64,000 nucleotides of DNA from assembly GCA_905178155.1 (NCBI GenBank), contig CAJINV010000002.1:8141224-8205223 (forward strand), written 5' to 3'. Positions 1 through 64,000 of the stretch are shown in pieces. Source of the stretch: Amoebophrya sp. A120. Its lineage: Eukaryota > Protista > Dinoflagellata. The notes beneath the pieces were generated by a model. The model was given only the letters and a program-made list of their open reading frames with translations. It was not told the DNA's origin and did not search any database. Every line of letters begins with the position of its first letter. Position 1 is the stretch's first letter. Both the position numbers and the translations under genes were made by a program.

Positions 1-3000
1 GCCACCGAAACAGGCACTGGCAGCCGCGTTCGACTCGAATGTTATCACACCAGGTACAACTACTAGCGCGAAAGATTAACATATGCGAATGATTTGTTCA
101 TCTCTATACCTTTTTTCCGTCGTGGAATAGGAAGACGAGTTTTTTTTTTCCATCACGCAACCAAGAACATAGAAACAATTATGCCTTATCATCATCACGA
201 CATCTTCACAGGAACGAAGTTTATGTGGGACCTGAACGAGGCTATTAAGTACTACATCCACGAGCGAACGAACTTCGATCCTTTGTGGCAAAAACTCCGG
301 TTCCGCGTGATTCTGTCCGACTGCCAGATTCCCGGGGAGGGAGAGCACAAGTTGATGGACTTCATCCGAATTCAGCGGGCCCAGCCCGAGTACGACCCGA
401 ACACGCGGCACTGCATCTACGGCGCGGACGCGGATCTGATCCACCTGGCGCTGGCCAGCCACGAAACGCACTTCCACATCATTCGTGAGGTGGTCTTGCC
501 AAAAGAGGAGAAGAAGCAGGACCCCTGGGAGCAGTTCGAGGCCGATGAGGAGGAGGCGGAGGAGGTCGCGAAGGCCAAGCCCTTCCAGTTCATCAACATC
601 GGCGTGCTGCGCCAGTATTTGTACTTCGAGTTCGAACCCCTCCGGGACAAGCTGCCCTTCCCGTACAACTTCGAGCGGTGCGTGGACGACTTCGTCTTCT
701 TCTGTTTCTTCGTCGGGAACGATTTTTTACCGCACTTGCCCTCCTTGAACATCAGGGACGGCAGCATCGACATGATGATTCTGCTCTACCTGGAAACGCT
801 CCCCAAACTCGGCGACTACCTGACCGACGCGGGGACCTTGAACCTGGAAACGACGGAGAAGTTTCTGGAGGACCTCGGGTCCGTCGAGGATCAGGTGTTC
901 AAAAACCGGCTCGCGCGGGAGGCCAAGCAGAAGCAGGAGTTCGACGAGGCGCGGGACGGGGGCAAGGGGCTGGAGGAACTGGAGAAAAACGTGGAGGACG
1001 ACGAGGAGGAGGCGAAGATCGAGCGGATCAAGCGGGAAAAGCGCGACAAGGAACTGCAGGAGAAGAAGACCAAGGGCGAGTCCGCGAAGGGCATGGCGGA
1101 GGGGAAGAAGAAGAAAAAAATCGTCCGGAAAAAGAAGGGCATCGAGGTGAAAAAGGATGCGGACAAGAAGGAGGCCAGCGAAAAGAAGGACGAAAAAGCA
1201 TCGCCAAAGAATTCGCCGAAGCAGGCCGCGAAGAAGGTCGACGTGACGGCGGCAGCGGATCAGCTCGCCGCGCTCTTCGACAACGAGGCGGAATCCAGTA
1301 TCCTATGTAAAAACGTATCCACCCCATAGTCAAGATGGGGAATCGGCTAGACAAATCCACAAGCTTTGGCTGTTTCGCATGACAAATTTGGACGCGTAGT
1401 GTAGTTGTGTTTGAGCTAGTTCAGCAGCATTACAGATCTAGTTTCTCATGCTGATTGGAGCATGACAAATTTCAAAACACCATTAGAAAATGCTTCTCAT
1501 GGGGCTCCGCATGAGAAACATTTTAAGCATGCAGACTTGCGTGACAACTATGGTGTGGGGACGTTTTTACACAGGATATGCAGTTCCGAAGAAGAAGTCG
1601 AAGTCACGGATGACGAGGCCAGCGACGCCGAGAAGCCGAAAGAGAAACCCTCACCCATGGCGAAGGTACTAGAGAAGATTTTACCGTCTGCGTTTGCGTA
1701 TGAGGATACAGAGACAGACCCCAAATAACCCCATGCATATAGTTATAATCTTATCGATTGGCAGCTCTTTAGTGCTTGGTTCAAGGTGGAGATGTGTATT
1801 TACTTTTATCGGAACAGTGGTAGCAAGAGTCTTGAGTTTTGCATAAGGCAGAAACAGAAAGCGGTTAACGACCGAGGACATCGACTCTGGCGTCCTGTGA
1901 ACAAGCGCATGAAACAACTTTTTTCAAAAATCACTCACAGCCCGTCGTGAACTCGAAGAGACGCGAGGAGAAGATGGAAGAAGCGTTTTTGAAGCAGGTG
2001 AGAAATCGTCTGATATCAAAAGGAAAAATCCCCCCTCCCCATATCGAAAACGAAATTTGTGATGCTGTATTTGAGTACGCAAGTCGACTTGTAATGCTAG
2101 AAGGCCAAGAGACGCAGCTGTGGCCTCGGCTGCAGGCAATTTGTCATGCTGTTTCCCACTTCCAGCTGCCCCCTGTCATGCTGAAGATGCAAGGCTTTCC
2201 CACGCCAACCAGCACTACAGTCCGCATCTTTTCCCTTCTAGCATGACAAAGCTGATTTGTGGCCACAAATCTGCATCGCAGTTTTCTAGTTTGAGTATGG
2301 GGTGGGGGGATTTTTCACTTTGATATCTGAACGACAAGAAGGATTTCGGTCAGGCCATGAAGGACACGATCCGGCTCGGGGAGGGCGCGCACTGGAAGAG
2401 GCGGTACTACGCAGAGAAATTCAAGGTCGAGCAAGAGGATTTGGTCGATTTTCTGCAGCGTATCCGAAAGGCGTACATCGAGGGATTGTGCTGGGTACTG
2501 AAGATATTTTTTCTATGCACCGATACTGACTATGAGTATGACCATGGCGAATAGTACAGTACGACCCACATCGACGTGGTTATTGTGTGAATTTGCGATA
2601 GAAGCGGTTTCTTGTACTTATATTCAAAATAAATCTTGTATGTAGATATGCACTCGAAGGTGAAGCTCTACCGAGCTACAAAAAAAATCAGGTGTTGAAG
2701 TACTACTACCAGGGAGTGGTATCCTGGACGTGGTTTTACCCGTACCACTACGCCCCGTTCGGGTCCGACTTGATTGGTATGAGCAGTTTGAATATGGATT
2801 GTAAAAGTGTCTGGGTCTGGAAGGTTGGGACTTGTAATGCTAGCTTTCCATACCTAGAAAATCTGTATTGCATAACCAACAAAAGTCGCAGCCTCTTTTG
2901 TCATGCAAAAACGCAGTTTCTCATGCGGATTGCCTATGAGAAAGCGTTTTAGGAAGTTGTCATGCCGGACTGCATTCGAAAGTGTTTTCATCATGCATTT

Positions 3001-4427
3001 TTAGCATCACAAGTTTCCAGACCCAGACATTTTTACATTTGATATTGAAGTGCAGCGACGAGAAGTATTTCGCCCTGGGTAAGGGTTTCGAGCCCGTGCA
3101 GCAGCTATCAAATGCAAAAATGTCTGGGTCTGGAAGATTGGGGGAGTTTGTCATGCAAATTTTACATGACCTGCGATGTTGGTGATGCATGCCTTCGCAT
3201 TACAGATTTTGTGAAGGCTTTCTCATGCCTATACTGCATGAGAAATGCCTTCTCAGAATAGCAAAAATCTGAGTGCCGTTTGCTGCTCATGCAATACAGG
3301 TTTTTGCATCGTCGAAAGTTAGCATCACAAATTCCATTCTTTCCAGACCCAGACATTTTTGCAATCCATAACAGCTGATGGCGGTGCTGCCGCCCGTGTC
3401 CGCGAAGGTGGCCGGGATTCCGCAGGCGATGATGACCCTGATGGAGGAGCACGACTCCCCCATCGCGGACTTCTTTCCCACCGACTTCGGGCTCGACCTG
3501 AACGGGAAGCGGTTCGCGTGGCAGGGCGTGGTGCTGCTGCCCTTCATCGACGAACCGCGGTTGCTGCGCATCCTGGCGCCGATGATGACGCAGCTCCAGG
3601 GCGACGAAAAGAAGCGGAACAACCCCAGCATAAACTGCCTCTTCGGCCACGTATCCGATCTCAAAAAGAAGGTGCCACCAAAGGGATCAACAAACAAAAG
3701 GCTACTCAGGGACGCGTTTCTGTTCGGGTATAGTCAAGTGCTTATGTTGTTTGCATTGAAAGTTTGGATTTGCTATGGCAGAAGAAGTGTACTGACGTAC
3801 TATGTTCTACTTCGTAGTCTGACTTCGATGTAGTTCTCTCCTTTTTAAAAGCGAGATCATCGCTGAGCTAATATACCGACGAAAACTTAATTCGTTTCGT
3901 TGCGATTCGAACTCGGCCTGATTTTCCTCAGCGTGGTGACGCAGTAAAAACTCTACTGCTTACACTTCTACCTCCCCCCATAATTTCGACGCCCAGAAAA
4001 AAATGAACACGCAAAATCATGCAGGTTCGTCCAGGGCCAGTTTGGCACCGGCGAAGAGATTCCATCGCCCATCGAGGGTCTGGCGGAGGTGGACGAGTCA
4101 GAGTGCGTGGAAACCAAGTACTACTTCCCGGACCGTGTGACGCATTCCATCGAGCTGTTGGAGAACGCGACGTTTGAACCCCAGGTGGTGGACCAGTCCG
4201 ACCTCGACGACATGCAGCGGCTCAAGGGGTTTGGCGGCATGACCGCGAAGAAGGTTATCCAGCAAGCCCTCGGCCTGTTCAAGGGCAAGTCCGGGAAGAA
4301 GGGCGGCAAAAAGGGCGGCGGCAAGAAGGGCGACAAGGGCGGGGGCAAGAAGGGAAAAGGCAAGATGGCCATGCCGCAAGCCGACCAGGGGCCCCGTCGA
4401 CCCCCCGCCAGATCCGGACCGTACTAA
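1..4427 (+). CDS. XRN2: 5'-3' exoribonuclease, XRN2/Rat1-like (5'-partial, spliced)
   Basis: XRN motifs [85 protein letters not shown] introns 54-211, 1666-1940, 2495-2691, 3728-4024 plus four TIR elements give one frame ending at TAA 4427. The short C-terminus favours XRN2 over XRN1. Confidence 0.9.
1299..1578. mobile_element. Introner family B (non-canonical intron)
   Basis: TATCCTATGTAAAAACG...CGTTTTTACACAGGATA; flanks TCCAG/TGCAG; removal restores AESSSEEE. Confidence 0.9.
2014..2325. mobile_element. Introner family C
   Basis: TATCAAAAGGAAAAATCCCCC...GGGGGATTTTTCACTTTGATA; TSD TCTGA; restores NRLNDKK; near-identical to 16257-16568. Confidence 0.92.
2793..3044. mobile_element. Introner family A
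   Basis: TATGGATTGTAAAAGTGTCTGGGTCTGG...CCAGACCCAGACATTTTTACATTTGATA; TSD TTGAA; restores SSLKCSD. Confidence 0.92.
3106..3370. mobile_element. Introner family A
   Basis: Family A TIRs; flanks GCAGC/ACAGC; restores the conserved QQLMAVLP. Confidence 0.92.
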
Positions 4428-5753: not shown

Positions 5754-6932
5754 ATGTTGGCGCCGTGCATCACCGCTCGTAGTAGTGGGTCCAGCCTTTA
5801 TTCCTCCCTTGCAGCGCTGACGTATTTCTTTGTTTTCTTAGTGGTGCACTACCAAAACTACTACAGCAGATGCGCAACCATCGTTGGCGCCTTTTCGTTG
5901 TCGTTTAGCAAGGTCAAGAAACGAACACAAAAGAGAGTGGCGACATTGCAAAGAGGGCGCACTACACGTCGGTCGTTGAAGGTGCTTCCCCCGACTTCAG
6001 GTGCCAGGTCCTCGAGGACCTACAAACAGAAGGAGACTTCCTCGCGCACGGCTCTCGAGGTCGGCAGAGCCACAGCGAAGAGCTCGTCGTCGGGTGGCAA
6101 TCAGCACCCAGCAGCCGCCACTTCTTTCATCCTGAGCGGGCCGGGTTCCTCGTCGTCGCTGCGCGGAAATGGAGAGGAGCCTCTGGAAGTCGCAGTGGAA
6201 GGAATTAGGAAGAACCGTGTGTGGAGTAAAAACCCTGCTCACGACGAGGACGAGCCGCCCCAAGGAGAGAGGGGTGCTTCCGAGGCGGGGAAGATGAACA
6301 AGAACCAACAACACGCCTCCTATGATAAAAATACAAGGCCCTTGTTCCTGGAAGACCCGTTCTCAGCAAGTGCACTGATGGGTGACGGAAATGCGATGAA
6401 TGTTGACGCCCACGACGCACACACCCCCGGGGAAGGGAGGAGCAAAGGAGTATCAAACGTCCAGCGAGCGGAGGTGCAGCTGACGCAGGCCCTCCAGGAG
6501 CTTCCGCCAGGCAACTGCCAGGATAGGTATTTACTGCACCAAGCGGAGCTGTTTAACCCCTTCGTGTGGTGTCGCGAGACGGAGCGGGGTGTTTGTTCTC
6601 ACCTTAGTGTGAAAATGTCGGAAACTGGGTCAAGCGAGTGGTCTCCTGTCGGAGAAGTAATCGACGATCCCCCTTGCGAGATTCTGACAGTGGAGTTGAC
6701 AACAGAACCGCCAGAGAACATGCCCATAGGAGAACAATGGGTTTGGGAATTGAACTATAAAGATATCGCGGAAAATTGTCAAAGGAAATGCAATAGCTGG
6801 CGGGAATGCAAGTTCTTTATCCACCTCCCGGTCGTGCTGGGGCCCACGAATGGTACCGAAAGGGACTACGTTGGGTGTCATTTGTTCTCCCGGGACGACA
6901 CCGTGAGCTGCCCGTTACCGGATGGTTTATGA
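5754..6932 (+). CDS. Putative first exon of a Cys-rich PAN/apple-like surface protein
   Basis: 392-aa ORF with hydrophobic N-terminal segment; Cys pattern CQRKCNSWRECKFFIHLP...CHLFSRDDTVSC is paralleled in the 9292 ORF. Confidence 0.55.
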   Translation: MLAPCITARSSGSSLYSSLAALTYFFVFLVVHYQNYYSRCATIVGAFSLSFSKVKKRTQKRVATLQRGRTTRRSLKVLPPTSGARSSRTYKQKETSSRTALEVGRATAKSSSSGGNQHPAAATSFILSGPGSSSSLRGNGEEPLEVAVEGIRKNRVWSKNPAHDEDEPPQGERGASEAGKMNKNQQHASYDKNTRPLFLEDPFSASALMGDGNAMNVDAHDAHTPGEGRSKGVSNVQRAEVQLTQALQELPPGNCQDRYLLHQAELFNPFVWCRETERGVCSHLSVKMSETGSSEWSPVGEVIDDPPCEILTVELTTEPPENMPIGEQWVWELNYKDIAENCQRKCNSWRECKFFIHLPVVLGPTNGTERDYVGCHLFSRDDTVSCPLPDGL

Positions 6933-8569
6933 GAGTGCGAAACTACTTCCCATTCTCGTCATTTGTCGTGCAGAATGGCAATCGCGTTCGCGTACCGATA
7001 GCCAGCCGTTTCGTTTCAGGCCTGGCTTGCGTGGTGACAGGCTACAGAACTCCAAACTGCACTAGCTTTCGTGTCTGGACTTGTCATGCGGAAGCCACGG
7101 TTCTGCTGTTGTTTCTGCTGCGGCTCATGCCACTAACTACGAGGGAGGGGAAGTTGCGTACTCGCATAAGATGTTGAGGGAATCCGGTATGGAGTGGATC
7201 AAGCCCCGACAACTGCGAATTATATCAGTGCGAAAAAAACCTATTTTCCACCCAGATTGATTCAAGACCGCTGCGTGGAAACCAAATAGCGTTTTAGTTA
7301 TATGTATCATGATGTTTTTGTACATCTCCGCGGCCTGTTATTGGCAGGGTATAAATACAGATATGGTATCGGCCGCAGAAGGGCAGATGTGGAGCTTTTG
7401 CAGGACCAATGCAGGTGCAAAGCGGACGAGTATTGTCTGAGTGCTCCAGTTTGTCACCATGCTTGCTCCTGCTGGAAGTAGAAGTATTTGGGGCTCGCGC
7501 CGCCGTGTTGGTACAACGGCGCGGGGATCTGCGCATAACAATAGAAAAAGCAGTACTGCAGCAACTAGAAACAGTTCGAAGAGGCTTGGTTGAAGAGCTG
7601 GAGCGTGCTTTCTCTGGGGCTGACTGTTCCCGGAAGGGCGGCCGACGCACTAACGCCGCGCGATGATGGCAAACAGCTTGATGGCAACAAAGTACAAAAA
7701 CAAAAAGGAAGAGCACGCGTAGCCAGGAACATAAAATGAATAAGAAATGGCGGCCAGTAGAGCGACCGGCCCACCAACTGCAGCCCAACGCCTAGCGCGC
7801 CAGATCCGGCCGGCCTCTGTAGTGCCAAAAGCCGGGTCAGGTAGAGGTAGATAAGGGCACGCACTTCCGCTTGGTGCGCGGCACGGTAGCCGTGCCTCCT
7901 ACCTTCTAGGAAATGTAAAGCAGACCCGTGCCGGGCGGCGTCCCCCCTTTCTACTTCAGCTACCCAGCAAGCGCAGGCAGCTAGGGCGAGAACGCGAGCC
8001 CTTGGGGTCCGCAGGTAGGCTCTTTTTTTAGGTGCGACTCCTGGCCGCCGCGCTGGTACTCGTCGTAGCAGGTGGCCGGCCAAAGCGCTGCAACCTGCCG
8101 AAGGCGCCGGCGCCGCTGCACGGATGTAATCTCTGTGGCGGCTGGCATCTGTTGCCTTCGCATCAAGCCGCCCCCTGTGCGCCGAGAGTTTCTCTTGCGT
8201 TTGGTCTTGCGCTTGTTGTGTGCATGCTTTTCCATCCGGGCTGCCCATCGGCGAGGCTTGGCCCGATACCCTGTAGCAAGTAGCAGGACCACGCAACTGC
8301 TGGCGGTTGCCTCCCAACAAATCTAAGTAAGAGGCACGCCTGCCAGGGGTGTTTTTGAGTTTTACTCTCGGCGCCGGCGGCCACACCTCAAAGCATGGAG
8401 GCAACAGCCATGCGGCTGGCTGTTTCTGATGTGTTAGCCACAGCCCCATTGCGGTTGGTTCGTTGTTTCTGTGCTCGGTTTCCTAGGCAAGCATCAGGGG
8501 CAGCAGATCGCCCGGGTAGCTGCGGTTGCTCAGTGTCAAAAACGATAAAAAAAGGCTTTTGGCTGTCGA

Positions 8570-8696
8570 GCTGTAGATGCTCGCTATAGGCGGAAGCTGT
8601 AGAGCTTTGGCTCTAGAGCATCACCAAACAGCTGTAGAGATTCAGCTCTAGAGATTGAGCTCTACAGGTTTTCGAGCTATAGAGGCGCTCGCCCTA
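8570..8696. repeat. Cluster of GCTNTAGAG-like short repeats
   Basis: About seven GCTGTAGA/GCTCTAGA/GCTATAG units ending in GGCGCTCGCCCTA. Confidence 0.6.
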
Positions 8697-34612: not shown

Positions 34613-34919
34613 ATGGCCAAGATGATGAAGATGATGAAGGCCGCCGAGCCGGCGCCGGCCATGAAGAAGATGATGAAGTATCCATTAAAAAAAAGCTAGC
34701 GTGCCAACCATGCGTATATGGGAAAAACAAAAATGTTTGGATGGGCCGGAAACAAAAAGTATGTCTTGCACAGCCTAAAGCCAAACAGCACGTTGACCAG
34801 CGATTTGCATGCGATTTGTTTTTGCCTCGAACACGACACATGACGGCACGTTAGCTTTTTTTCTTTGTGATAAGCAGATGAGCATGAAGATGAAGATGAT
34901 GTCCATGAAGAAGAAGTAA
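34613..34919 (+). CDS. 35-aa Met/Lys-rich basic peptide (two exons)
   Basis: 34613-34678 plus 34878-34919 give MAKMMKMMKAAEPAPAMKKMMKMSMKMKMMSMKKK*; resembles DVNP N-terminal tails. Confidence 0.65.
34679..34872. mobile_element. Introner (distinct TIR)
   Basis: TATCCATTAAAAAAAAGCTAGCGTGCC...GGCACGTTAGCTTTTTTTCTTTGTGATA; flanks TGAAG/AGCAG. Confidence 0.8.
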
Positions 34920-48800: not shown

Positions 48801-51800
48801 CCCTGGGTCCGCACGCTCCGAGCCGAAGAAATGCTGATCTTTGGCTTGTCTCCTAAGCCATCCTCATCTGTAGTAGTGGAGTCACAACATCAACAAGAGG
48901 AGCAGGAAGACGATTCTGCGACAGCGGAAAAAACCGAACAGCAGCAGGAAGAAGATCTGGGCGTTCATTTTCCGCTGACAAGAGACGAGATGCAAGCCCC
49001 CACGAGAACCTCGAGCGCAGAATTGACAGTTTATCCCAGAGAAAAAATGATGTAGCATAGAGGATGTCAAAAGTCACGTCCATATTTATTTTGCATAAGC
49101 ACCTCCAGCACCGTGCTGTGGGCTCGCCCGTAAGACGACGTGCGCTACTGTCATCATAGAAGTGTATTCATAATATCGCATCAAGGATATGGTATACAAC
49201 TAGTTTTTTTCTGTTGGATACAGTTGCCAGCTTCTTTCACCGATCAGCGGAGACTGTGCTGAATTGCTCGCTGATGTATCTGACGCGCAGCGATCTGTGG
49301 TATCCTGTGTAAAAACGCACCCAGCATTGCCTGTCTTGAAAACCGTTCATGTGCAGGAAAGGGGACGCGTCTCGTGCCAATGCGGCTCCCCCTGAGAGGC
49401 ATTTTCTGAATGTTATGTTGTAGCTTCTTCCCGTGCTCTACCATGTACGTAGTGTGAAGCAGTTGTCATGTGTGATTCCGAGCAAATATACTTCTGGATT
49501 TCATCGCTTGCAGGACTCTCCCATTATGGTTGTTTCAACATTTCAGGATGAAACGCATAATGAGTATGAAACAGAAACGAAAATTCCATCGTGACTCTGC
49601 CTGGGGACAACTTGGGTACATTTTTACACAGGAGAGGTGGCAGTACAACACCTACGAGCGCAACATTTCGTTCGTTGTGCGAGATCCACCTCCGCGTCCC
49701 GATCAAACTGGTGATGAGAGTGAAATGGGGAACTCGACCTGGAGTTCAGAAGTGCAGACGTTGGAACGGGAATTGGAGCGGGCAGCGCTTCTACACGTGG
49801 ATGCAGAAGAAAGGAAAACTTCTGCAGCGCGGCCAGCGGTAAAAACATCACGGGCATCTTCTACACTACAGACCACTTCCTCTTCATCGATGTTGAAAAT
49901 GAACCATAATATTGAACAAGGCGCAGCAGGAGTAGCAAATGCGACACAGAGGATGAGCACTACCAGTGCGCACCCAATAAACCAGGTAGAAAAGGAAAAG
50001 GATCGGGTTCGGAGGTATCGCAATTGCCGCTTAAGGCTGGAGACAAGAGGCAGCTACTACCCGCAGAACCATTCTCACAGCGCCTCTAGTGCAGCGAGTA
50101 CAACGGCCGAACCTTCATCTGCTTCGCCCCAACATCATGTTCTTCTTGAGCCGATTCTTTTACTAGAAAAGAGCTGGCCAGCGCCGCATTGTAAAGGATT
50201 GCTCTACACCAACTACAAGAGGAGCAACGGAACTACAACGACTATGAATAACAGCGTCGGAGGTCTGGAGAAAGAGGACACCGTGCCCCGGCGTGGTGTC
50301 ACGGTGGCGGAGCTGCTCGACGAAGTGCCAGCGGAACTGTGGGAGCGGCACGGCGCGGCGACGAGGCTCATCCCGGACGAAGCCGACCTTGTGGCGATCA
50401 GACTTTCGGTCCACTTTGATCTGGACGTTGATGTCTCCGGGAGGAGCGCAGAGCTGGCGTCGAGTGGTGTTACCGTGTAGAAAAGCGTTCCCACAACTCC
50501 AGATTTGTCGTCATGTAAGTCTGCAAGCCTAGTAAATTGTTTCTCATGCGGCGCAGGAGCCCGATGGCGATGAGCAGCATTGTCCAAAAATGCTATCGGT
50601 AAGTTTGTTATGCTAGAAGAAGGACCACAAGATGAGGGCCGATTGGTAGTGATGAGGCTGCACTTCTAGCTAACCACGACGACGCTAGAGACCCAAACTT
50701 GTGGTTGACCCCGGTTCGCGGCAGCCGCACAGTCTGGTTATAGCGCAAGGGCAAATAAGACTCTTGATTTGTATAGCAAAGCTGCCATCTGGACGAATGG
50801 GGCGTTTTTCCTGCGGATAAGTTTTCACGAGAAGAGTCGTTTGAAGGCGCGGCTGGCGGAGTTCAGAGAACGGCAAGCACGGGAGAAACGGGTACAGCCA
50901 GCGGATCTCGGTGCTGTTGAGATCAGGGTCATTACTGGGGGCCCCGACAAAGGTCTTGTTCAGAAGCACGCTGTAGATCAAAGACGAGAGCCACTAGGGG
51001 GAGATGAACTTCTACAAGAAGAAACGACCTCCATGCGACGGCTGCCGGAAATTGAGCCCGATCGACGAGCAGGTACTAGTGCGAATAAAGAGCAAGGGGC
51101 TGACGCGTCGACGTCCTCACCCTCTTCATTTACTTCGGCGTTCACGTTGATGGGGGATGAAATAGGACGAAATAAAATAAAGGTTTCTAGTACTGGAGAT
51201 TTGAGTGCTGGTGATCATCGTTGGCTGGCTACGGAGTGGACCATGGAAAAGAATATCTTCGCCAGAACGGATTTTTCAGCTTCCATGCTGCGTCGAAGCA
51301 ACGCGTTAGCTTCGACGTTTCTGCCTCCTGGGATTTGCTCCTTTTCCGGGGTACCCGCCTCCAAACGCACGTAGCGCTCGCGACACAGGAGCAGCTGGAG
51401 CAAAGGACAAGGGAAAAGAAACGCGCGCGGCTGAAGCTCGAGCAACAACGGCCCACTGACGCGGTATCGCGACGAAAAATTTCGCCTGAGACCACAAGGA
51501 AACCTGTGATCATGCTGATTTGTGGCCAAAAATCAACTTACACACAGGCTAAGTAAAAACATTCGGGAGCGATGTGCTGGCGCAGTCTACAGCGAATCAG
51601 TCATGCGCTTTCGCCTGCGTCAAGCTCAATGATATTTGTCATCCTAGATTGCTAGCCGGCAGCTGCATTAGAATAAAAATTTACCCAAACAGCAGGTCCA
51701 GAGAATGCCTGCAAGCGCTCGTTGCACTACAGATTAGTGTACATCGCAAAGAAACCTCGCATAACTACAAATTTCCTTTTGAGTATGTGGAGGCGGCGGG

Positions 51801-54800
51801 ATTTTTGATTTTGATACGCGGAAACACTGCTTCTCTTCGCGGCTGCTTTGTCGGGCATGCAACTCAGTAGCCTCAGAGTGATGGACCGCCCTCCTTACAC
51901 ACCTTACCGCCTTTATGGGAGTGTCTCGTTGGAAATCGTCAAAATAAAAGATTAGTAAGGTACCGTGCAGAAATCGACCCCAGTTGGACCCATAGTTTTA
52001 GTCTCTAGGCGGGGTATGATAAATGAATTGTTTAGAGACACTACTTGTTTAAGCGAATGCGAATCTGCCATACTGTGTAGGGCAAAGAACAAGAAGTGCC
52101 AGTGCTTCCCTGTCATGCTGGTCAGCTCTCCTCCTTTCACGCCAACCAGGACTACAATCGGCCTCACATCATTCTAATGCTCTTGGTTTGTGGATTGTTT
52201 CACGTTGCCTTGTGATTTGCATGTGCCTCACGCATTGCTTGGTCAGGTGCTTCCAAGTCTCACGATATCGCAGGGTGCACGCACAAACGAGATCGCCGGG
52301 GCGCGGGGGGGGGGATGTGCAATCAAGAAAAGGAATGCCTCTGGGGCGCTTGTTGTTGTTCAGTATTTGGGTCGCATCTCATGCATTTTATATTTACAGA
52401 CTATTACCAGCTTGCCGATTTCTACCCAGACACTGCCATAGGAATGCTAACCGGGTTTCGTTGATGCAAACCTTGGCGAAGAGCCGGGCCGTGCGCATGG
52501 AGCTCTCGCGTCTTGCCGTGCCGCTCTCTTTGGAGTCCAGAAGCTGGTCTAAAGAGACAGAAGAATCGCTCGATAAGGCACTAGCCGGAATAAGACTTCA
52601 GCAGGGGGCGTTGTTGGGAGCCCTGTTGCGATGGAATCCTCTTGCGTTTCGGTCAGACGAGACTTCCTCGCCGAGCTTCGGGTCTTACACGGAACTGGAT
52701 GTGTTTCGAGAGTTTCACCTCGGATATGATGAGCAGGACGTGAGAACGCAGATGACGCTAGCAGGATTTTCGCCTCGGAGTTGGCTTTTCCTCGACCTGC
52801 CTTTTGTGCTTCAGCAAAACCCCCGTTTCCTGCTGATGACGATGACCGACCCCGCTGTGTGGAACGATGAGCACCATCACAAGGAGATGCTGCGCTATTG
52901 GGACAAGTGGTTTGGCCGCCAGCAGAGGTGGCGGGAGTCCGGCGGCAGGCAAGAAAGGCCCAGGGAAATATCGGACACCCACGTGGTCATCCTGGAGCAT
53001 GAGGACAGGCAGAGGCAGAGGGAGAGTCCGGAAAGCGCCATGGACTTGTTTGCAGTCGCGCTGCGTGAGGCCCTTGCTGCCGCCTACTTCGTTCAAGGCC
53101 GGGAGCGGATACTGGATTTTCTCTCTGTCGCCATGTACCGGATCCCAGGAACGGTGACAGTTAAACCCCGCGATGATGCGGGCTGTAGCTTGTTTACTCG
53201 TAATTATTACCAGACCTGTGGTGTGCTAATTACCGAGCGCAGCCGCCAACCACAGTATTCCTATCCAGGAGAGGAAGGGTCCGGCAACAGGACTTCAGCA
53301 AGACTGCTGGAGATAGAAGAGCCCCGAAGAGCGGTCATGGGCCCTTGGCCCGTCGTGCATCGCTTCTTTTTGCCTCCCGCAGATGCCGTTGCGGTCCAGG
53401 AGAGGGTGAAAGCGTTGCACATTCGGCAGGGGAGTTGGCGTCCCCCCCTGGAGCTGGCACTGCCGAGGCATCGGTTGGAAGTGTATGTTGGGCCTTTGCG
53501 CAACAGCAACGTCTACACCACGTTTGTTTCCGAGGATATGCCCGATGAGGCCTTGTGCGATGCGCCGCTGTATGGCGTGCACGTTCGGCTCATAGAGCTA
53601 AAAACAAGTCATTCAAGAACACCTCCAGACGACGACGCGGACGGCGAGGGACGAAGACCAACGCCGCCCCCGCTTCGTAGTGCCCCTGAGCGGGAGGTGC
53701 ACTTTTTTCCAGCAGAGGACCACAATTTGCTGCAGAAGTATATGCGAGACCTGGATGATTTGTCGATGTCGAGAGACCACGCTCTTTTGCCCGGAGCGGT
53801 GAGTCCTCGAGGAGGGCGTCCGTTTTCTCTACTGGGTGATAGTTCTGGTAGAGGTTGGGACAAACATCCATTTGATCCTCATCCAGGGAGTGGCGTCAAA
53901 TTTAACCGATGGGGAGGGCTGAACTCGAGGCTCGTGGAGTTCTTGCTGCTGATGCAGCGGTTAATGCAAAAGGAGCTGCGGGAACGAGGCCAGTTGCCGG
54001 TTGGCTGGCGCGAGAGTCTGCATGCATGGTTCCGGCTGCGATTTGGACCCTCCGCGGACGGGCGGTATTACGATTATTCGCCTGACATGGCATTCTTTCT
54101 GGGTTCGGGCAGCATAGATGTCGCAGAACTTCTGCGGATGCAAGGTCTCACCTGTGACAACCCAGACTTTCGTCGGGTCCAGATTGCAATATTCTACGAC
54201 GCCTACCATCCGTCCCAGGTCGTGAAGGTGGGGAACACGACGAAGCAACAAGGCAGTTTTCTCGGGATCATGGACACACCGAAGTTCTCTGAACCTCCGA
54301 GAGAGGAAACGCCATTGCTTTCTCTGCACGCGGTTGTCCATTACTGGCTAGACGCCTTCCCGCCCGGCCCGGAAGAGGTGGAGTGGATGTTGAGGGGTGG
54401 CCAGGCGCACGGGGAAACGAACAGAACAAATTACCTCCTGCATAGTTTTGGAACGTCAGCGGCTAGCGCCATGTTGATGCCAGTGAAAAATCTCGACGTA
54501 GACGAGGCGGGTAAAACTCTTTTTTCGGGGAATTTAAACTTTTCCGACCCCGTGCCCAACCTGAGCTCGAAACTTTTTGTCGGAATGGTTAGGGGCAGCA
54601 GCATATCCTGAGTAAAAGCGTTCCCACACCATAGTCAAGATGACAAATCTGCTAGACAAATCAACAAGCTCTGGCTGTTGCGCATGACAAATTTGGCCTC
54701 GTAGTGTAATGCTTTTCGGCAAGTTCACCAGCGTCACAAGTCTCGCACATCATGGTGATTGGAGCATCCCAAATTCCGCAATACGACGAAAGCACGCTTC

Positions 54801-56616
54801 TCATGGGGCTCCGCATGAGAAAGATTTCTAGCGTGCAGATTTGCATGACAACTCCGCTGATGGCAGTTTGGTGTCCGCCTGACCCACCCGCCCGGCGCAC
54901 CAAGCCATCTGCGGCCGTGGTGCAATGGGGGGGCAAAGTGTGTCGCATTTTGTTTAGCATGACAACTCTGGGGTGGGGACGTTTTTACTTCGGACACAGC
55001 ACAGAGCCTCCTCCAGTGGGGGCGGGCGCGCGTGAAGATCACGAGAAGAACCCCGCCCATGGTCGTGTCGGACAGGAAAAAGATAAAGAGCCCAGTCGAG
55101 GACGTGCCGACGCGGGGGATCACCAGCAACACTCTATCCTGGCGCGTCCTCCTGATCCTGCCACTGATAGTAGACGAGGAACTCCAGAAATACAAAACTC
55201 GTCTGGTCAAGCTCAACAACCACTTCTACTAAACGTAAACGCGACTCCTGAAGACCTTGTTCATTCGACAACGACGAGAATACAAGGTTTAAGACCGAGT
55301 AGACCACCAGGTCGAAGAACATCGAAGATGACATCAATTCCCACGCGACGAGAAAACACGAGCAATCGGACGAACGCAACGGGCGGCCGCAGCACCTCCA
55401 GTGGTGGAAAAAATACCTCCAATGCTGCAGCCTGCTGTGCAGGTGAAAATGACAATGGAGGTGAAAATGACAATGTAGATCGCGGCATATCACGGCGTCC
55501 TTCATCACGGCCGTCACCTTTGCGTCGATACTTGGTGTGTGCGCGGCTGTGGTTGGGATCCTCCTGGTTGCGCAGTGCCTGGCCGCGCGCGCCGAGCGGC
55601 AGCGCCGTCTGGCCTCGGGCGAGCGGAATGTTGAGACGAAGCTGGAGCGTGCACGGGAGCGGTTTCTGCGCGAGCGCGAGAAGCGGCGAAAGCTTCGACA
55701 GCGGCAGCAGCGAAAGTTGAACCTCGTAGAAAAATTGCAAAACAGGATAAAAATCAATACACACAAGCAGGGGGATGTGGATCAGGATCACGAAGATGAA
55801 ACCCGGGTGGAAAGGGACAACGTTTCCGGCGGTCTGGAGCAAGACGAGGCGTTGCGAGGGTCACCTTCAGGAGGTGTCAATTTAATATCTCAAGAGGCGC
55901 GAAATGATATTCGAGCAGGGAGTGCGCATCTCCGGGTACCAGAAAGCACGGGTAGGTCCCGTAGCCCGCCGGGAGATCCAGTCGTATCACCTCCGGCTCG
56001 TCCCACCTCAAACGCGGCAACAGTTGCAACAAGGAAGTTAAAGACCAGCGTAGTAGACGGAGCAGGAAAAACACTCCCCGCACCAGCCGCACCACGACGC
56101 GCGACGGAACGCCCCCCGCGCGCACCACCATCAAGCACGCGGGACAAGCTGACAAGCGACAACGTTTTAACCTTGCGGCCGAAAGAAGAGAGAAAAAGGA
56201 AGAACGCTCCTCTTAACTCCTCGTTTCCCTACCACGTGTGGGAACAACCTCCACCGCGCACAGTAGAGCCCGTGCGGGAGCAGGGGCGCGACCGCCTGGA
56301 TAGGGAGGGTGCTTTTCTTCGCCCCGATACTGCCGGTGTGAGAAACCAGGTTCTCGTGCAGATTCCGGAAGATGACAGCAGCACGGCAAGAAGAGCCGGA
56401 GCGGCACCTTCGGCGCCCGTTTTCACTCTGTCCGGGACCCACGGGGGTGTGGGGGAGCAACCTTCAGATGCGCTCGACGTGTCCTTTCAAGTGCCACGAA
56501 CGGCTGAGGAGTGGGAGCGGTTGCAAGCGTTCCAAGGGTACGGAGCAGAGGATCCGATCCCCGCCTCTACCCTACAGCCTGTAGTACATCGGGGTCCTCG
56601 TGCTGCAGGAACGTGA
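45853..56616 (+). CDS. Large orphan protein with possible signal peptide and C-terminal TM helix, split by many introners
   Basis: ORFs 45853, 46408, 47721, 48321, 49530, 50769, 51221, 52188, 54752 and 55537 join after element removal; junctions near 50890-51220 and 55261-55535 and the start are tentative. Confidence 0.55.
46044..46290. mobile_element. Eroded introner
   Basis: TATAACCCGCTCAA...TTGAGCACGTCATA; TSD eroded, but removal of element+5 is in frame. Confidence 0.6.
46478..46805. mobile_element. Eroded introner
   Basis: TATCTTACAGGAAAGTACACG...CGTGTGCTTTCTCTTTCTTGATA; flanks CAAGC/GACGC. Confidence 0.7.
46859..47120. mobile_element. Introner family A
   Basis: TSD GGAGC; inverted relative to 19619-19880. 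Confidence 0.92.
47149..47410. mobile_element. Introner family A
   Basis: Family A TIRs; TSD CGCAG. Confidence 0.92.
47466..47786. mobile_element. Introner family C
   Basis: TSD GGAGA; right end reads AATT. Confidence 0.88.
47959..48292. mobile_element. Degenerate introner family A
   Basis: TATGGATTGCAAA...TTTGCACTTGATG; TSD TCGAC. Confidence 0.82.
49032..49220. mobile_element. Short introner
   Basis: TATCCCAGAGAAAAAA...TTTTTTTCTGTTGGATA; TSD CAGTT. Confidence 0.82.
49301..49635. mobile_element. Degenerate introner family B
   Basis: TATCCTGTGTAAAAA...TTTTTACACAGGAGA; flanks TGTGG/GGTGG. Confidence 0.82.
50468..50819. mobile_element. Degenerate introner family B, apparently inverted
   Basis: AAAAGCGTTCCCAC...GGGGCGTTTTTCCTGCGGATA; left boundary approximate. 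Confidence 0.6.
51465..51816. mobile_element. Degenerate introner family C
   Basis: TATCGCGACGAAAAAT...GATTTTTGATTTTGATA; TSD CGCGG. Confidence 0.8.
51914..52440. mobile_element. Eroded 527-bp introner
   Basis: TATGGGAGTGTCTCGTTGGAAATCG versus right-end reverse complement TATGGCAGTGTCTGGGTAGAAATCG; removal of element+5 is in frame. Confidence 0.7.
54604..54996. mobile_element. Introner family B carrying a 102-bp nested insertion
   Basis: TSD CAGCA; right end reads GGACA. Confidence 0.88.
54855..54956. mobile_element. 102-bp hairpin-forming insertion with a 12-bp direct repeat
   Basis: GCATGACAACTC at 54843-54854 and 54957-54968; internal inverted repeat GATGGC..TTGGTG / CACCAA.GCCATC. Confidence 0.75.
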
Positions 56617-59680: not shown

Positions 59681-61990
59681 ATGAATTTCGGCGTGGATCT
59701 CTTCCGCTTGTACGAGAACCACAAGAAGGAATCGGAGGCGGCGGGGAATTATGAGACGGCCGCAACCACCGCCCTGCGGCTGCATCAAATGCGGACCGTA
59801 GAGCAAAAGCGGCAAAAAGCGTACAGATACTTTGCTTACTCAGATTTCGATCTCATTTCTTTCGTGTAGAAGCTTTTGTTTCAGTAGTGTTGGGTGCAAC
59901 TTGATTCAGAGAAACTCACAATTGCAGGAGCAAATATCTTTACCTGTACGTAAATGCAAATCGTCGCAGGTCACTTGCCCAGCGCCACAAAACCGAGCTG
60001 GAAGCTCTGGAGGCCGCACAGGTGCAGGCAAAACTGGAATTGGTCGAGTATTCAGTTCTTAAACGTTACATTTTCAGCTGTTACATGCATTTGTGACGCA
60101 AGGATAGGAAAAGTGAAATGGGGGAGCTTGCTGCACCTCTCGCATCACAAATTAGCTCGGCACAGATTTTGGCGGTGTTTAAGTTTTTCAAGAATTTGTC
60201 AAACGAAGTAGCTCCGTCGTGTGGATGTGGATGGTAATTTTGCATGACAAATTCACGGAGCAAAATGGGTCGCCCTGCCCTTAGCCTTCCAACATGACAA
60301 ATTCACGGAACAGCTGACAGCGTAAGGTTTGAGAACTCCATAGCGAGGCTGAAAAAGCCGCAGTCGGCCAGCTGCTAGCGCACGAGTCGGAGCAGCATGC
60401 GAAATTGCGGGCCAGACATGCGAAGGAACTGGAGAATGTTTCGCCGCCAGCGCGTAGCTCTACTCGAGCCACCACGTCAGCAGGTGCGGAAACGAGTAAC
60501 AGCACTGGAAGTTGTTGTAGCACCAAGGACGAACAAGAAGGGCACTACGAGATCGCCACAAAAAGCACAACTGGAGGTTTCGAAGCAGCTCCTGAGAGGT
60601 CGACCAGCACTGCTACTGGTAGTACGAATGCAGCAACTGCTGTGACGAAACAAAAGCCGACAGCCGAAATTCTGCAACTGGAAACTCGCCTGAAGCACAT
60701 CGTCTCCCAAGGCCTTTACGCCAAAGCACGTAAAATCGCTCAGCAGAAACAGATGCTAGTGCAGGAGCAAGAAGCGCGCGCAACGGTACTAATACAACAC
60801 ACAGATGTACAGATGCTTGCTGTAGTTGCATAGAAGGTTAGAACTAGATGCTTCGTTTTTGTCGCAGCGAGCAACGTGTCTCAGACACTGTCACTGAAGC
60901 CTAGTACCGACTAAAAATATTTAAAAAATATTGCGGACAAGTTCGTGAACGAAACATTACCGAAGCATTACCGAGTGGATCATCTAAAGATCTAATCCTG
61001 TTTCTTGTTTAAGATTAAAAACGACAAAGTCGACATCAACGCTGACACCCAGGCCTCCCTGCCGCTCGAAGCGGAGACCAAAGCTTCAAAATTGGCGCAA
61101 AAGCACCAAGCTGAGCGCGACGCGCTGGAGGCCCGTCTGCGGCGCGGGCGCGACTGTTTGCGCCGCAACCAAGAAGATGCGTTCCAGCAGCTGCATATCC
61201 TGAGTAAAAACATCCCCACACCAGAGTCAAGATGGGGATTTTGCAACACAAACCTAGAACTTCTGGGGGTCACGCATCACAAGTTGCAGTCCGTAGTGTA
61301 GTGCAGGTTCGCAAGGCCAGCTGCATCAGAAATCCATCTGCTCATCCTGTTTACAGCATTACAAATTCGAAAACACGACTAAAAATGCTTCTCCTGGCGA
61401 TGCGCATTACAAATGTTCCTGTCATTGCAAATCTGCATGACAACTCTGGTGTGGGGACGTTTTTACTCAGGATACTGCAATTACGGCAGGCAAAGGCGCT
61501 CGCGAATCTGCAAACCAAGCACCGCTGCGAGCTGGCGCAGTTGGAAGCAAAATGCAGGAACACGGCGAGGAAGCAACATGCAGGAATATTACAGGACGGA
61601 AGCGAAATCTTCGAAACAGATGTTGCTCAGCGACTGCAGGGCAAAACTTTGCTGCAGACAACCAGCAGGGAAAACAGTCCGCGGGGAGGACGAGCCGTCC
61701 CATCTTCACATAGAAGTCCTCGCTGCAAAAGTCCTACTTTCCTCGCTTCGGGCAAGTTGTTCGAGGTGGATAGGGCTGCTTATAGCGAAACGTCATTTTT
61801 CAATACCAGTATTAGTGAAGAGTTTGCTTCCAAAGAACTAAACAGGCCCCCGATAGTGAGTGCGTTTGATGCAAGTCAGAATAAGGACAGTGTCAGTTCA
61901 GCCATGAGCAGGTTTACCGCGGAGGAGCGCAGTCGCACGCTCGGAAGTGGTGGTGATCACTGGAGTAGAAATCCTCGAAAGAAGTTCTAG
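59681..61990 (+). CDS. Coiled-coil hypothetical protein (multi-exon, internal junctions only partly resolved)
   Basis: Helical segments YENHKKESEAAGNYETA, KLAQKHQAERDALEARL; ORFs 61005 and 61232 join after removing element 61196. Confidence 0.6.
61196..61474. mobile_element. Introner family B
   Basis: TSD CTGCA; empty GCATGACAACTC site. Confidence 0.92.
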
Positions 61991-62661: not shown

Positions 62662-64000
62662 ATGCCGAAAATCGCCCTCACCCGCGAGGACGGTCTGAAT
62701 GACCAACTCGAGCAGGCCGTTCGAGCGCACTACATGAAGCACGTGTCGGTGTTCGATGACCACATTTCGTATGAGGAGCTCCCGGGTGTCGAGCAGATCA
62801 AGGGCCCGGACTTCCAGCGGCTGGCCCGGCTCTGGGATAAGGAAGAGTTCGACTGCTGCTGCCTGCTTGGGACGGAAGCGGCCAAGATCTACGTGGACCA
62901 GTGCAAGCACTTCGACTACGCGAAGTTGGTGTGCGTGGGCAAGGGCACACTGGAAGTCTTGCAGAAGGAGAGGAGGAGCAGCAACGTGGTGACGCTGCCG
63001 GACAAGGCCACCGCCGACGGCACCGGGTTAGCGGACCACTTGCCCCTGGCAGTCGGCACCCGCCTGCTGCTGCTCTGTTCGGTGCAGCAGAAAGACGAAT
63101 GTACTTCTTATTCTTGAAGATGTGACGAGGTCCGATAGTTGCTTCGGAATATTATTCGGAGGACGAGCGCTATCTAGAGAGATCACTTTGTACTTCAGGG
63201 TGAGGAAGTGCAGCTTTTTGTTGATGCTGAATAACATAGAAAGGTGCCGTTCTACTTCGCAATCATTTGTTTACATCGTGAACAAGTAGAAGAGTTTACA
63301 CACACTACAGGCAAATCCACTTTAGAGCAGCGGGGTTTCGAGACCACGGTGTTTCAGGTGTATTCCACCCATATCAAATGCAAAAGTGTCTGGGTCTGGA
63401 AGAATAATGCTGTTTTTGCATGACACAGAAGGTCTGGCATGGAAGCTCCAGCATCACAGGTTTGGAGAAGCGTTCACAATGCCGAATCCGCATGACAAAC
63501 CCCTGACTTTTGTGACAGAAAGCGGGCAACTTTTGCTGCCTATGCATGAGAGATTTTTCTGTGTTCTGAAATGCGCATCACAAGTTTGCACTCTTCCAGA
63601 CCCAGACATTTTTGCATTTGATAACCCAGCCCCGCACGGAGCCCCCGACGACCTTCGACTTTTCGAAAGTGGACATCTGGACCTTCGGCAGCGCCTCGGC
63701 CGTGAAGGGCGTCGCGCAATGGAAGACGGCCAACGTGAAGGTCGCGATTTGCGTGAACCTGACCACCGCGAAAACGGCACAACAGCTGCTGCCCGCGAAA
63801 CTGGAGGACGGCAGCGAACTGAAGATCGAGTGTGCGGACAAATCCGGTGTGAAATCCTGGGCCGCGAAGGTGGTGGACTTCCTGAAAAATGGGCCGAGCA
63901 AAGAACAGAAGGACTTCGCGGCCGAGAAGGACAAAGAAGCAGCAGACCACCACCTCCCGGCGAAGAGTAGCGGAGCAGCGACGAGTAAAGCAAGCGCAAC
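62662..64000 (+). CDS. hemD: Uroporphyrinogen-III synthase (3'-partial)
   Basis: KIALTREDGLNDQL, ELPGVEQIKGPDFQRL, VCVGKGT, PDKAT, LEQRGFETTVFQVYST, TFGSASAVK, KSGVKSWA resemble plant/algal UROS; GT-AG intron 63101-63310 plus element 63372. Confidence 0.8.
63372..63623. mobile_element. Introner family A
   Basis: Family A TIRs; TSD ACCCA. Confidence 0.92.

What the first reader, a model, noticed from the sequence alone, without database searches (positions are those of the whole stretch)
1299..63623. About 45 TAT...ATA MITE-like elements behave as precise non-GT-AG introns with one rule: remove element plus 5 nt
Seen: several TIR families share TAT/ATA termini and 5-bp TSDs and interrupt conserved motifs (XRN QQ|LMAVLP, DVNP KRG|KVV|SKK, RAP GW|VV, HemD). 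Removing the element plus one TSD restores the frame in every traced case. For most, no sliding of the junction gives GT-AG (e.g. 2014-2325). Known: inverted/direct-repeat non-canonical introner introns are reported in Amoebophrya, and to my knowledge their excision machinery is unresolved. Inference: a structure-guided excision system serves many families. TAT termini with a 5-bp TSD match no transposase superfamily I recognise.
Basis: partly seen in the sequence, partly recalled or inferred. Interest (0 to 1): 0.85.

Follow-up and report, generated by a model that had tools for sequence, protein, structure and literature searches.

The report
Transposon-derived introns without GT-AG ends
About 43 small jumping-DNA elements sit inside this protist's genes and, where transcript assemblies could be checked, are cut out exactly despite lacking the usual GT-AG splice signals; they match introns already published for the marine parasite Amoebophrya, and what this work adds is where the cut falls and a hint that a modified spliceosome likely makes it.

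Summary
I catalogued 43 TAT…ATA elements with 5-bp target duplications (24 strict cases vs 0–1 in shuffles). Likely-RNA contigs show a joint at 12 of 13 elements in one 20-kb stretch; all 12 remove element+5 nt. Four XRN elements fit by exact length (1601=1601). The phenomenon is published: Amoebophrya A120 introners (Farhat 2021: TAT start, 5-bp repeats, RNA-supported, U1 not found; Gozashti 2025 supplement: 5-bp TSD, TA/TA termini). New here: (1) mismatched duplications show the mRNA keeps the upstream copy, which puts the 5' cut 0–1 nt before TAT and the 3' cut 4–5 nt after ATA; Farhat left borders unknown. (2) Across 298 oriented elements the first T is never mutated, the mirror 3' A 14 times. 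(3) There is no G·U bias or fold asymmetry, orientation is free, and a 1.7-kb element is removed whole. The termini resemble IS3EU/GingerRoot (TA..TA, but usually 6-bp TSD); no transposase was found. Known system with a testable refinement.

The parts
1299..1578 (+). Introner in XRN gene; TSD mismatch at position 2
   Evidence: Likely-RNA contig matches to 1295 (upstream copy kept); length sum exact
2014..2325 (+). Introner in XRN gene; no GT-AG register
   Evidence: Length sum exact
2793..3044 (+). Introner in XRN gene
   Evidence: Length sum exact
3106..3370 (+). Introner in XRN gene (QQ|LMAVLP); TSD mismatch at position 1
   Evidence: Contig resumes at 3372 as +5 predicts
6928..7168 (+). 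Older introner; TSD mismatches at positions 1, 3, 5
   Evidence: ORF restored; no RNA cover in X3
14119..14370 (+). Introner in DVNP-family gene
   Evidence: ORF
14601..14899 (+). Introner, 3' end ATG, DVNP-family gene
   Evidence: ORF
14992..15163 (+). Introner, DVNP-family gene
   Evidence: ORF
15247..15472 (+). Introner, DVNP motif KRG|KV
   Evidence: ORF; DVNP Pfam hit on the upstream exon
15489..15760 (+). Introner, DVNP motif VV|SKK
   Evidence: ORF
15833..16084 (+). Introner, 5' end TAC, inverted relative to 14119
   Evidence: ORF
16257..16568 (+). Introner, 93% identical to 2014
   Evidence: ORF; blastn
16649..16927 (+). Introner, last in the DVNP-family gene
   Evidence: ORF; an X3 contig joins the window at 16928 with 804 upstream letters not shown
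19303..19570 (+). Introner in 1317-aa ORF
   Evidence: ORF
19619..19880 (+). Introner in 1317-aa ORF
   Evidence: ORF
20143..20511 (+). Introner, TSD mismatch at position 3
   Evidence: ORF
22114..22405 (+). Introner, TSD mismatches at positions 2 and 4
   Evidence: Joint 22112>22410, 297 nt = element+5, contiguous in the record, upstream copy kept
27938..28249 (+). Introner in 1907-aa ORF
   Evidence: ORF only; depth 0-1.5, no joint
29141..29401 (+). Introner
   Evidence: Joint skips 266 = element+5, contiguous in the record
30230..30735 (+). Introner with a nested insertion of about 240 nt
   Evidence: Joint skips 511 = element+5, 'between: not known'
30841..32568 (+). 1728-nt introner carrying a nested insertion of about 1.44 kb (31092-32530)
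   Evidence: Joint skips 1733 = element+5, 'between: not known'
32628..32948 (+). Introner
   Evidence: Joint skips 326 = element+5, 'between: not known'
33217..33497 (+). Introner (GW|VV); TSD mismatch at position 1
   Evidence: Joint skips 286 = element+5, contiguous in the record
34679..34872 (+). Introner in a small M/K-rich gene; TSD mismatches at positions 1 and 3
   Evidence: Joint skips 199 = element+5, 'between: not known', contig depth up to 2276
37319..37572 (+). Introner in a gene that also has two GT-AG introns
   Evidence: Joint skips 259 = element+5 in 4 of 4 runs, same contig as the GT-AG joints
40392..40699 (+). Introner in arrestin-domain gene
   Evidence: Joint skips 313 = element+5, 'between: not known'
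40790..40940 (+). Introner, TSD mismatch at position 4; limits the cut to register 4 or 5
   Evidence: Joint 40788>40945, 156 nt, one ambiguous letter, 'between: not known'
41022..41271 (+). Degenerate introner found from the RNA joint; TSD mismatch at position 2
   Evidence: Joint skips 255 = element+5, 'between: not known'
41333..41639 (+). Introner with weak TIR (8/15) and no predicted terminal stem
   Evidence: Joint skips 312 = element+5, 'between: not known'; pairing 0.13
44771..45083 (.). Doubtful: perfect TSD, TIR 6/15, no long ORF
46859..47120 (+). Introner in 827-aa ORF
   Evidence: ORF
47149..47410 (+). Introner in 827-aa ORF
   Evidence: ORF
47466..47786 (+). Introner, 3' end ATT
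   Evidence: ORF
47959..48292 (+). Introner, 3' end ATG
   Evidence: ORF
49032..49220 (+). Introner
   Evidence: ORF
49301..49635 (+). Introner, 3' end AGA; a GT-AG register is possible
   Evidence: ORF
50471..50819 (+). Introner, 5' end TAC; TSD mismatches at positions 1 and 4
   Evidence: ORF
51465..51816 (+). Introner in 1073-aa ORF
   Evidence: ORF
51914..52440 (+). Older 527-nt introner, TSD 2/5
   Evidence: ORF
54604..54996 (+). Introner, 3' end ACA, nested insertion of about 100 nt with a 12-bp duplication
   Evidence: ORF
60049..60342 (+). Introner with a 33-nt nested insertion and a 17-bp duplication
   Evidence: ORF
61196..61474 (+). Introner
   Evidence: ORF
63372..63623 (+). Introner in HemD-like gene
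   Evidence: ORF; HEM4 below cut-off on an upstream exon
42300..42649 (.). Degenerate element lying inside what appears to be a GT-AG intron
   Evidence: Automatic scan; no RNA test
1666..1940 (+). Canonical GT-AG intron (donor GTACT); likewise 2495-2691 and 3728-4024
36058..36180 (+). Canonical GT-AG intron; likewise 36256-36475
   Evidence: Joints in 4 of 4 runs

Best explanation
These are non-autonomous TIR transposons (TAT...ATA, 5-bp target duplication) of the kind published as Amoebophrya A120 introners; likely-RNA contigs lack the element plus 5 nt at every junction that could be read, and the removal is likely done on the pre-mRNA by a modified spliceosome rather than by a hairpin alone. 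Shown: the elements, the +5 rule, the upstream TSD copy kept at positions 1-4, free orientation, and tolerance of TSD mismatch and of a 1.4-kb insert. Inferred steps: (1) an unknown integrase-type (IS3EU/Ginger-like) transposase inserts the element with a 5-bp staggered cut at almost any exonic site; (2) the 5' cut falls one base before TAT, so the intron starts N-U-A-U, which resembles the host's own GUA(C/U/A) donors with position +1 relaxed and +2 U required; (3) the 3' cut is set by distance, 4 nt past the terminal AUA, with no AG; (4) exactly one TSD's worth of sequence is removed, so the protein is unchanged and insertions are nearly neutral, which lets the families spread. What measures the 3' distance is not known; the paired ends may help.
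For: Joints at 12 of 13 elements in 21800-41799, all element+5; the 13th was not covered. XRN: 1601 nt needed, 1601 predicted. Seven RNA-read elements with mismatched TSDs all keep the upstream copy; 22114 and 40790 force register >=4, and 40790, 33217, 34679 and 41022 force <=5. First T of the 5' end mutated 0 times vs last A of the 3' end 14 times in 298 oriented elements, p=1.2e-4. The other assembly alone gives 0 vs 11 of 256 with per-element orientation, 1 vs 9 of 262 with per-locus orientation, and 0 vs 9 of 234 where both agree; the window gives 0 vs 3 of 42. Five of the 14 changes (ATT, ATC) break the pair, and position 3 runs against a wobble rule (TAC 7 vs GTA 3). All 5 host GT-AG donors checked begin GTA. 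One contig at one depth joins GT-AG and introner junctions. Farhat 2021 reports 83 of 89 spliceosomal proteins, with U2, U4, U5 and U6 but no U1 found in A120. Fritillaria is a precedent for a spliceosome adapted to transposon-derived non-canonical introns.
Against: No lariat, branch point or spliceosome dependence was tested. Register 4 vs 5 is unresolved: the mutation-polarity test gave p=0.25, and the only pointer to 4 is one paralogous domain (V at 6928, like the copy near 9751). The published N-T donor counts are not independent support, because aligners place junctions freely inside a repeat. My prediction of an invariant branch A three bases from the element end failed in the second assembly (4 changes vs 6 at the mirror site), and no 3'-specific constraint was found in 20 terminal positions. 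Position +1 shows no clear G preference (107 of 298 vs about 31% in flanks). 13 of 15 RNA-supported elements that were folded do have a predicted terminal stem >=0.5. The RNA is contigs from 2 samples of 1 study, with RNA status guessed by the tool, and 8 of 12 joints are flagged 'between: not known'. Orientation in the second assembly comes from a codon model (38 of 43 right on its own training window in the first version).
Confidence: 0.6

Rival explanations
1. Structure-guided, possibly non-spliceosomal excision: the TIR stem brings the ends together and an unknown nuclease/ligase cuts at fixed spacers from the paired motif.
For: Orientation is free (81:91 in the largest cluster). A terminal stem is predicted in 13 of 15 RNA-supported elements folded. 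Neither a 3' AG nor a branch motif was found. 9 of 14 terminal 3' changes are A>G, which keeps a U.G pair. Euglena's rule also uses paired motifs with fixed spacers, N3-CDG...CH'G-N5-6 (abstract).
Against: No G.U over A.C excess in TIR positions 1-24 (281 vs 285; one sub-bin of the window, positions 11-16, did show 15 vs 3), and no sense/antisense fold difference (p=0.88, n=289). 41333 and 34679 are removed exactly with predicted terminal pairing of 0.13 and 0.33. The 5' T is constrained while its partner A is the most variable terminal base. Symmetric TIRs explain free orientation under either model.
Confidence: 0.27
2. A sequence-specific protein (for example a domesticated transposase or an RNA-binding protein) bridges the two TIRs or the internal TGTSATG repeats and delivers the ends to the catalytic core.
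For: All clusters share TAT-N7-AAA ends, and an internal motif is about 55-fold denser inside elements (9.8 vs 0.18 per kb), pointing inward near both ends.
Against: The motif is strand-symmetric (368 vs 357), as expected of transposase-binding sites on DNA. No such protein was found (one search covered only the 61 distinct ORFs sent of 134).
Confidence: 0.08
3. The elements are excised from DNA (empty somatic alleles), and the 'spliced' contigs reflect those alleles.
For: The product is identical to a precise excision that leaves one TSD.
Against: X1 contigs at single-copy depth (21-33) run from exons into elements at 1299, 2014, 2793, 3106, 14119, 15489 and 16649. The spliced contigs also lack GT-AG introns and leave intergenic DNA uncovered. 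A low-depth contig retaining 34679 (depth 2.9 vs 2244) looks like precursor.
Confidence: 0.03
4. Reverse-transcriptase template switching across hairpins with direct repeats fakes the joints.
For: A hairpin plus a short direct repeat is the classic substrate (own knowledge); the data are cDNA-type contigs.
Against: The XRN frame needs the removal. The removed form is the major contig at the same depth as GT-AG joints. Joints are exact where only 1-2 letters are shared (40790, 22114, 34679) and where no stem is predicted (41333).
Confidence: 0.02

Closest known systems
Amoebophrya A120 introner elements (Farhat et al. 2021, PMC7789003; Gozashti et al. 2025, PMC12130899)
   Same: TIR starts TAT + 7 variable bases + A-run; 3-5-nt direct repeats (5 bp in Fig. 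S19); RNA-supported non-GT-AG introns; many families of about 150-320 nt; host genes on one strand; a DVNP gene in the window.
   Different: Nothing essential. Farhat's Fig. 3 legend calls splice sites variable and the border unknown; here the length rule is fixed (+5) and the register narrowed to 4 or 5. Their analysis was limited to 40-1000 bp; a 1733-nt one is removed here. The strain of the window was not determined.
Euglenid nonconventional introns (PMC12501133 abstract; PMC11282704 passages)
   Same: Non-GT-AG, TIR-like paired ends, TSD-like repeats, cuts at fixed spacers from terminal motifs, coexistence with GT-AG introns, unknown machinery.
   Different: The motif is CDG/CHG at +4 with a 5-6-nt 3' spacer and a purine after the cut; here it is TAT/ATA at +1 or +2 with a 4-5-nt spacer and no purine rule seen.
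Fritillaria borealis MITE-derived non-canonical introns (PMC13326754 abstract; PMC11282704)
   Same: Transposon-derived non-GT-AG introns removed by an adapted spliceosome.
   Different: They have defined AG-AC/AG-AT ends, U1 is retained and U2AF duplicated; here there is no 3' dinucleotide and U1 was not found.
Micromonas/Aureococcus introners
   Same: MITEs with TIR and TSD that become precise introns.
   Different: They keep canonical splice motifs taken from the element and TSD; here only 2 of 42 could use G[TC]-AG.
IS3EU/GingerRoot DNA transposons (PMC10045372, PMC12730594 passages)
   Same: TA..TA termini (TAYGG..CCRTA in fungal IS3EU; TATGG is one end type here), TIR about 30 bp, integrase-type transposase as hinted for A120 family 38.
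   Different: TSD is usually 6 bp; here it is 5 bp; no transposase was seen.
Ginger2/Tdd and hAT5
   Same: 5-bp TSD (Tdd-4, Tdd-5; hAT5).
   Different: Ginger termini are TGTNR; hAT5 termini were not checked in a paper (YA recalled); no transposase to compare.

Membership tests
Amoebophrya A120-type introners | IR begins TAT, seven variable bases, then an A-run | tested here: met
   TAT at 287 of 298 5' ends; A at 81-96% of positions 11-14 in 258 elements; definition
Amoebophrya A120-type introners | 3-5-nt direct repeat at the borders | tested here: met
   Exact 5-bp repeat in 199 of 289 strong-TIR pairs, none at 6 bp; 215 of 300 perfect
Amoebophrya A120-type introners | Removed from transcripts at non-GT-AG borders | tested here: met
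   12 of 13 joints plus the XRN length match; RNA status of the runs is the tool's guess
Amoebophrya A120-type introners | Repeated in families, non-coding inside | tested here: met
   Clusters of 172, 24, 21 and fewer; summed X1 depth up to about 116,000 on elements vs about 25 on unique DNA
Amoebophrya A120-type introners | Host is Amoebophrya strain A120 | not testable with these tools
   No genome held; run names coded; genus inferred from element anatomy and the DVNP hit
U2-type spliceosomal intron | GT/GC...AG ends | tested here: not met
   2 of 42 window and 17 of 185 other elements offer such a register
U2-type spliceosomal intron | Conserved U at +2 | tested here: inconclusive
   The terminal T is invariant; it is +2 only under register 4
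U2-type spliceosomal intron | Branch point and lariat | not testable with these tools
   The candidate branch A was not conserved; no raw reads covered the genes
Euglena-type nonconventional intron | N3-CDG...CH'G-N5-6|R signature | tested here: not met
   Ends are TAT/ATA
Euglena-type nonconventional intron | Selected base pairing between the ends | tested here: inconclusive
   Stem usually predicted, but no G.U bias
IS3EU/GingerRoot | TA..TA termini | tested here: met
IS3EU/GingerRoot | TSD usually 6 bp | tested here: not met
   5 bp
IS3EU/GingerRoot | IS3/integrase-type DDE transposase in an autonomous partner | tested here: inconclusive
   None in the window or in 61 of 134 long ORFs from 483 kb of related loci; sample far too small
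Ginger2/Tdd | TGTNR termini | tested here: not met
   TAT; TGT in 2 of 298
Ginger2/Tdd | 4-5-bp TSD | tested here: met
hAT5 | 5-bp TSD | tested here: met
hAT5 | hAT transposase | not testable with these tools
   No autonomous element found

The most novel reading that the evidence does not exclude
Amoebophrya has a U1-less spliceosome that needs only a U at intron position +2 and places the 3' cut by a 4-nt ruler from the transposon's end, with no AG. Any TAT-ended transposon, in either orientation and at any exonic site, then becomes a perfect intron, and the elements in turn serve as safe landing sites for a target-specific retroelement.
Probability: 0.35. Interest if true: 0.78.

Novelty: already known. 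Interest (0 to 1): 0.4.

Why it matters
How Amoebophrya removes tens of thousands of non-GT-AG introns, with no U1 found, was left open by Farhat 2021, who could not place the borders inside the repeats. Using mismatched duplications as markers gives a register (5' cut 0-1 nt before TAT, 3' cut 4-5 nt after ATA) and one required base. That turns the question into specific tests: lariat mapping, position-5 mismatches genome-wide, and U+2 versus stem mutants. If the spliceosomal reading is right, it would be an extreme case of 3' splice-site choice without AG and would explain why the invasion was nearly free of cost. The elements themselves are not a discovery.

Tried and rejected
No whole genome was held. 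No listed holder was on record as RNA. Element 27938 had no cover. The joint 30252>33253 joins two TIR copies and was dropped as false. Branch-A hypothesis: suggested by 5 of 5 window ends, not supported by the second assembly. G enrichment at TSD position 5: 17 of 42 in the window but no clear excess overall. Depletion of position-5 mismatches: apparent in the window, absent in the second assembly (7 of 52). Polarity test for register 4 vs 5: p=0.25. Homologue search to read the junction at 6928: nothing at E<=1e-5. Published N-T donor frequencies were rejected as evidence, since the same tables show about 68% A-N acceptors, which points to aligner placement. Transposase hunt: no TIR match in viral contigs; the longest intact elements in 149 loci were <=1.1 kb; no transposase Pfam hit in 61 distinct ORFs of 134. 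No orthologous locus to test empty sites. No Rfam family in the window. Earlier findings: none returned. The per-element ORF test alone was noisy, with off-frame ORFs winning for several elements; for 34679 the 140-aa ORF counted is not the likely frame. Paper searches for a published mechanism or register found none; Roy et al. 2023 Curr Biol was seen only as a reference, and the figures of Farhat 2021 and files 13-14 of the Gozashti supplement were not seen and may bear on novelty.


Full report
1. Observation. An unbiased inverted-repeat scan of the window returned mostly TAT...ATA pairs with 5-bp flanking repeats. With TIR >=11/20 and a perfect 5-bp repeat there are 24 pairs, against 0-1 in each of 10 shuffles. 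Hand curation of the full sequence and one element revealed by RNA gave 43 elements of 151-1728 nt, 21.8% of the window. 42 are convincing. Seven of the 42 have one altered terminal triplet and 14 have TSD mismatches. All host genes traced are on the + strand. Removing all 43 with 5 extra bases yields ORFs of 821, 314, 1317, 1907, 522, 432, 827 and 1073 codons, among others. 38 of 43 elements lie in ORFs >=300 aa, against 11-19 for other offsets and 33-34 for the frame-equivalent +2 and +8. Pfam confirms XRN, DVNP and arrestin domains split across exons. Only 2 of 42 elements allow any G[TC]-AG register.

2. Transcript evidence. Contigs of runs X3-X6 (two samples, one study; the tool only guesses they are RNA, but they lack GT-AG introns and leave intergenic DNA uncovered) were laid on 21800-41799 at 99% likeness. 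Of 15 joints listed, 12 are elements, 2 are GT-AG introns and 1 is a false TIR-to-TIR joint. All 12 skip exactly element+5 (297, 266, 511, 1733, 326, 286, 199, 259, 313, 156, 255, 312 nt). Four are contiguous in the record coordinates and eight are flagged 'between: not known'. The thirteenth element was not covered. In XRN one contig spans four elements and two GT-AG introns with 475 letters where the window has 2076; the predicted removal is 1601, as needed. Contigs of X1, which behave as genomic DNA and may be the window's source, run from exons into the elements at single-copy depth.

3. Where the cut falls. With a perfect TSD the junction can slide over six registers. Seven RNA-read elements have mismatched copies, and all keep the upstream copy: position 1 (3106, 33217), 2 (1299, 41022), 3 (34679) and 4 (22114, 40790). 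If one register serves all, the 5' cut lies 0-1 nt before TAT and the 3' cut 4-5 nt after ATA. TSD identity is not needed for precision. Registers 4 and 5 could not be separated (p=0.25; one paralogue favours 4).

4. What is read. A metagenome-collection scan with the TIR core gave 149 loci, almost all from one other assembly, holding about 300 more elements. The repeat is 5 bp (199 of 289 strong pairs, none at 6) with little base preference. I oriented 256 of 319 elements with a codon model and added the window's 42. The first T of the 5' end is never changed, and its mirror, the last A, is changed 14 times (p=1.2e-4). The other terminal positions change 3-8 times. With per-locus orientation the second assembly gives 1 vs 9. 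Wobble explains 9 of the 14 but not the other five, and position 3 runs the other way. There is no overall G.U excess (281 vs 285), no fold difference between strands, and no orientation bias (81:91). Most elements can fold a terminal stem, but 41333 and 34679 are spliced exactly with little predicted pairing. My own branch-A prediction failed.

5. Mechanism. The best reading is a modified spliceosome. Under register 4 the intron begins N-U-A-U, like the host's GUA donors (5 of 5 checked) with +1 relaxed, and the 3' cut is set by distance. The transposase, the register-4 choice, the spliceosome's role and the ruler are inferred. A paired-end, Euglena-like system remains a serious rival.

6. 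What is known. Farhat et al. 2021 (PMC7789003; abstract, sections 10 and 12, passages of 11, 16, 17, 32, 36, supplement legends and Tables S4, S7) describe A120 introners starting TAT + 7 nt + AAA with 3-5-nt direct repeats, RNA support, 29,850 members and no U1 found, with borders left unknown. Gozashti et al. 2025 (PMC12130899; passages and the 58 A120 rows of supplement file 8) class most families as TIR DNA of unknown superfamily and list family 38 as Ginger, '5-bp TSD, TA/TA Termini', while the main text says it lacks Ginger's termini and TSDs. IS3EU/GingerRoot have TA..TA ends with usually 6-bp TSDs (passages); Tdd-4/5 and hAT5 make 5-bp TSDs (passages). Euglena and Fritillaria comparisons rest on abstracts and a review's passages. 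Four searches found no paper giving the register or the machinery; the library lacks most subscription journals. The window's genus is inferred, not looked up.

7. Verdict. The register, the single required T and the lack of selection on the stem appear to be additions that make the open mechanistic question testable. Interest 0.4.

Noticed in passing
window 31092-32530, about 60260-60292; L050 about 3950-4300; L008 about 4200-5117: A nested repeat family with a shared 3' end inserts into introners at their internal CATGACA motif, with 11-17-bp duplications and lengths of about 33 nt, 340 nt and 1.44 kb. This looks like a 5'-truncated, target-specific non-LTR retroelement using introners as safe sites (inferred; no reverse transcriptase seen)..
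   Followed up: partly
window about 54858-54957 and 30314-30553; L074 5013-5984; L019 505-1608: Other nested insertions in introners: one at the same motif with a 12-bp duplication, one ending in an (AACG)n tail, one with an A-rich tail and a duplication of about 16 bp at the same motif, and one about 800-nt insertion with short tandem repeats..
   Followed up: partly
window, inside all elements: The motif TGTSATG is about 55-fold denser inside elements than outside, strand-symmetric, and peaks near both ends pointing inward; likely transposase-binding sites..
   Followed up: partly
window 13971-16974: A DVNP-family gene of about 300 codons carries eight introners, with exons as short as 16 nt plus TSD (15473-15488)..
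   Followed up: partly
window 34613-34919: A tiny Met/Lys-rich ORF of about 35 codons with one introner has contig depths in the thousands, with paralogues suggested by loose ends..
   Followed up: no
window about 7340-9340: Intergenic region with 5-8-fold raised depth in X1, probably another repeat family; not identified..
   Followed up: no
window 5733-7289 and 9256-12759: Two neighbouring ORFs share a cysteine-rich domain (around 6770-7200 and 9650-9800); no Pfam hit or homologue for the first.
   Followed up: partly
window 51372-51389: The 827-aa and 1073-aa ORFs meet at a possible 18-nt GT..AG mini-intron that would fuse them into one gene; untested.
   Followed up: no
window 42300-42649, 44771-45083, about 45500-45810: Elements outside exons are markedly more decayed than exonic ones, as expected if splicing keeps the ends under selection; only three cases.
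   Followed up: no
window 42920-43180: A 21-nt tandem repeat encoding a Gln/Pro/Met-rich tail at the likely end of the arrestin-domain gene..
   Followed up: no
runs X10, X11 on window 1328-1381, 16687-16708, 19618-19668: Raw RNA reads hold element ends with foreign flanks from single loci, i.e. retained elements or DNA elsewhere, while the window's exons have no cover..
   Followed up: no
L039 (AUXO010294962.1): One TIR-core match lies in a contig with a phage terminase-like ORF; probably a chance 19-mer..
   Followed up: no
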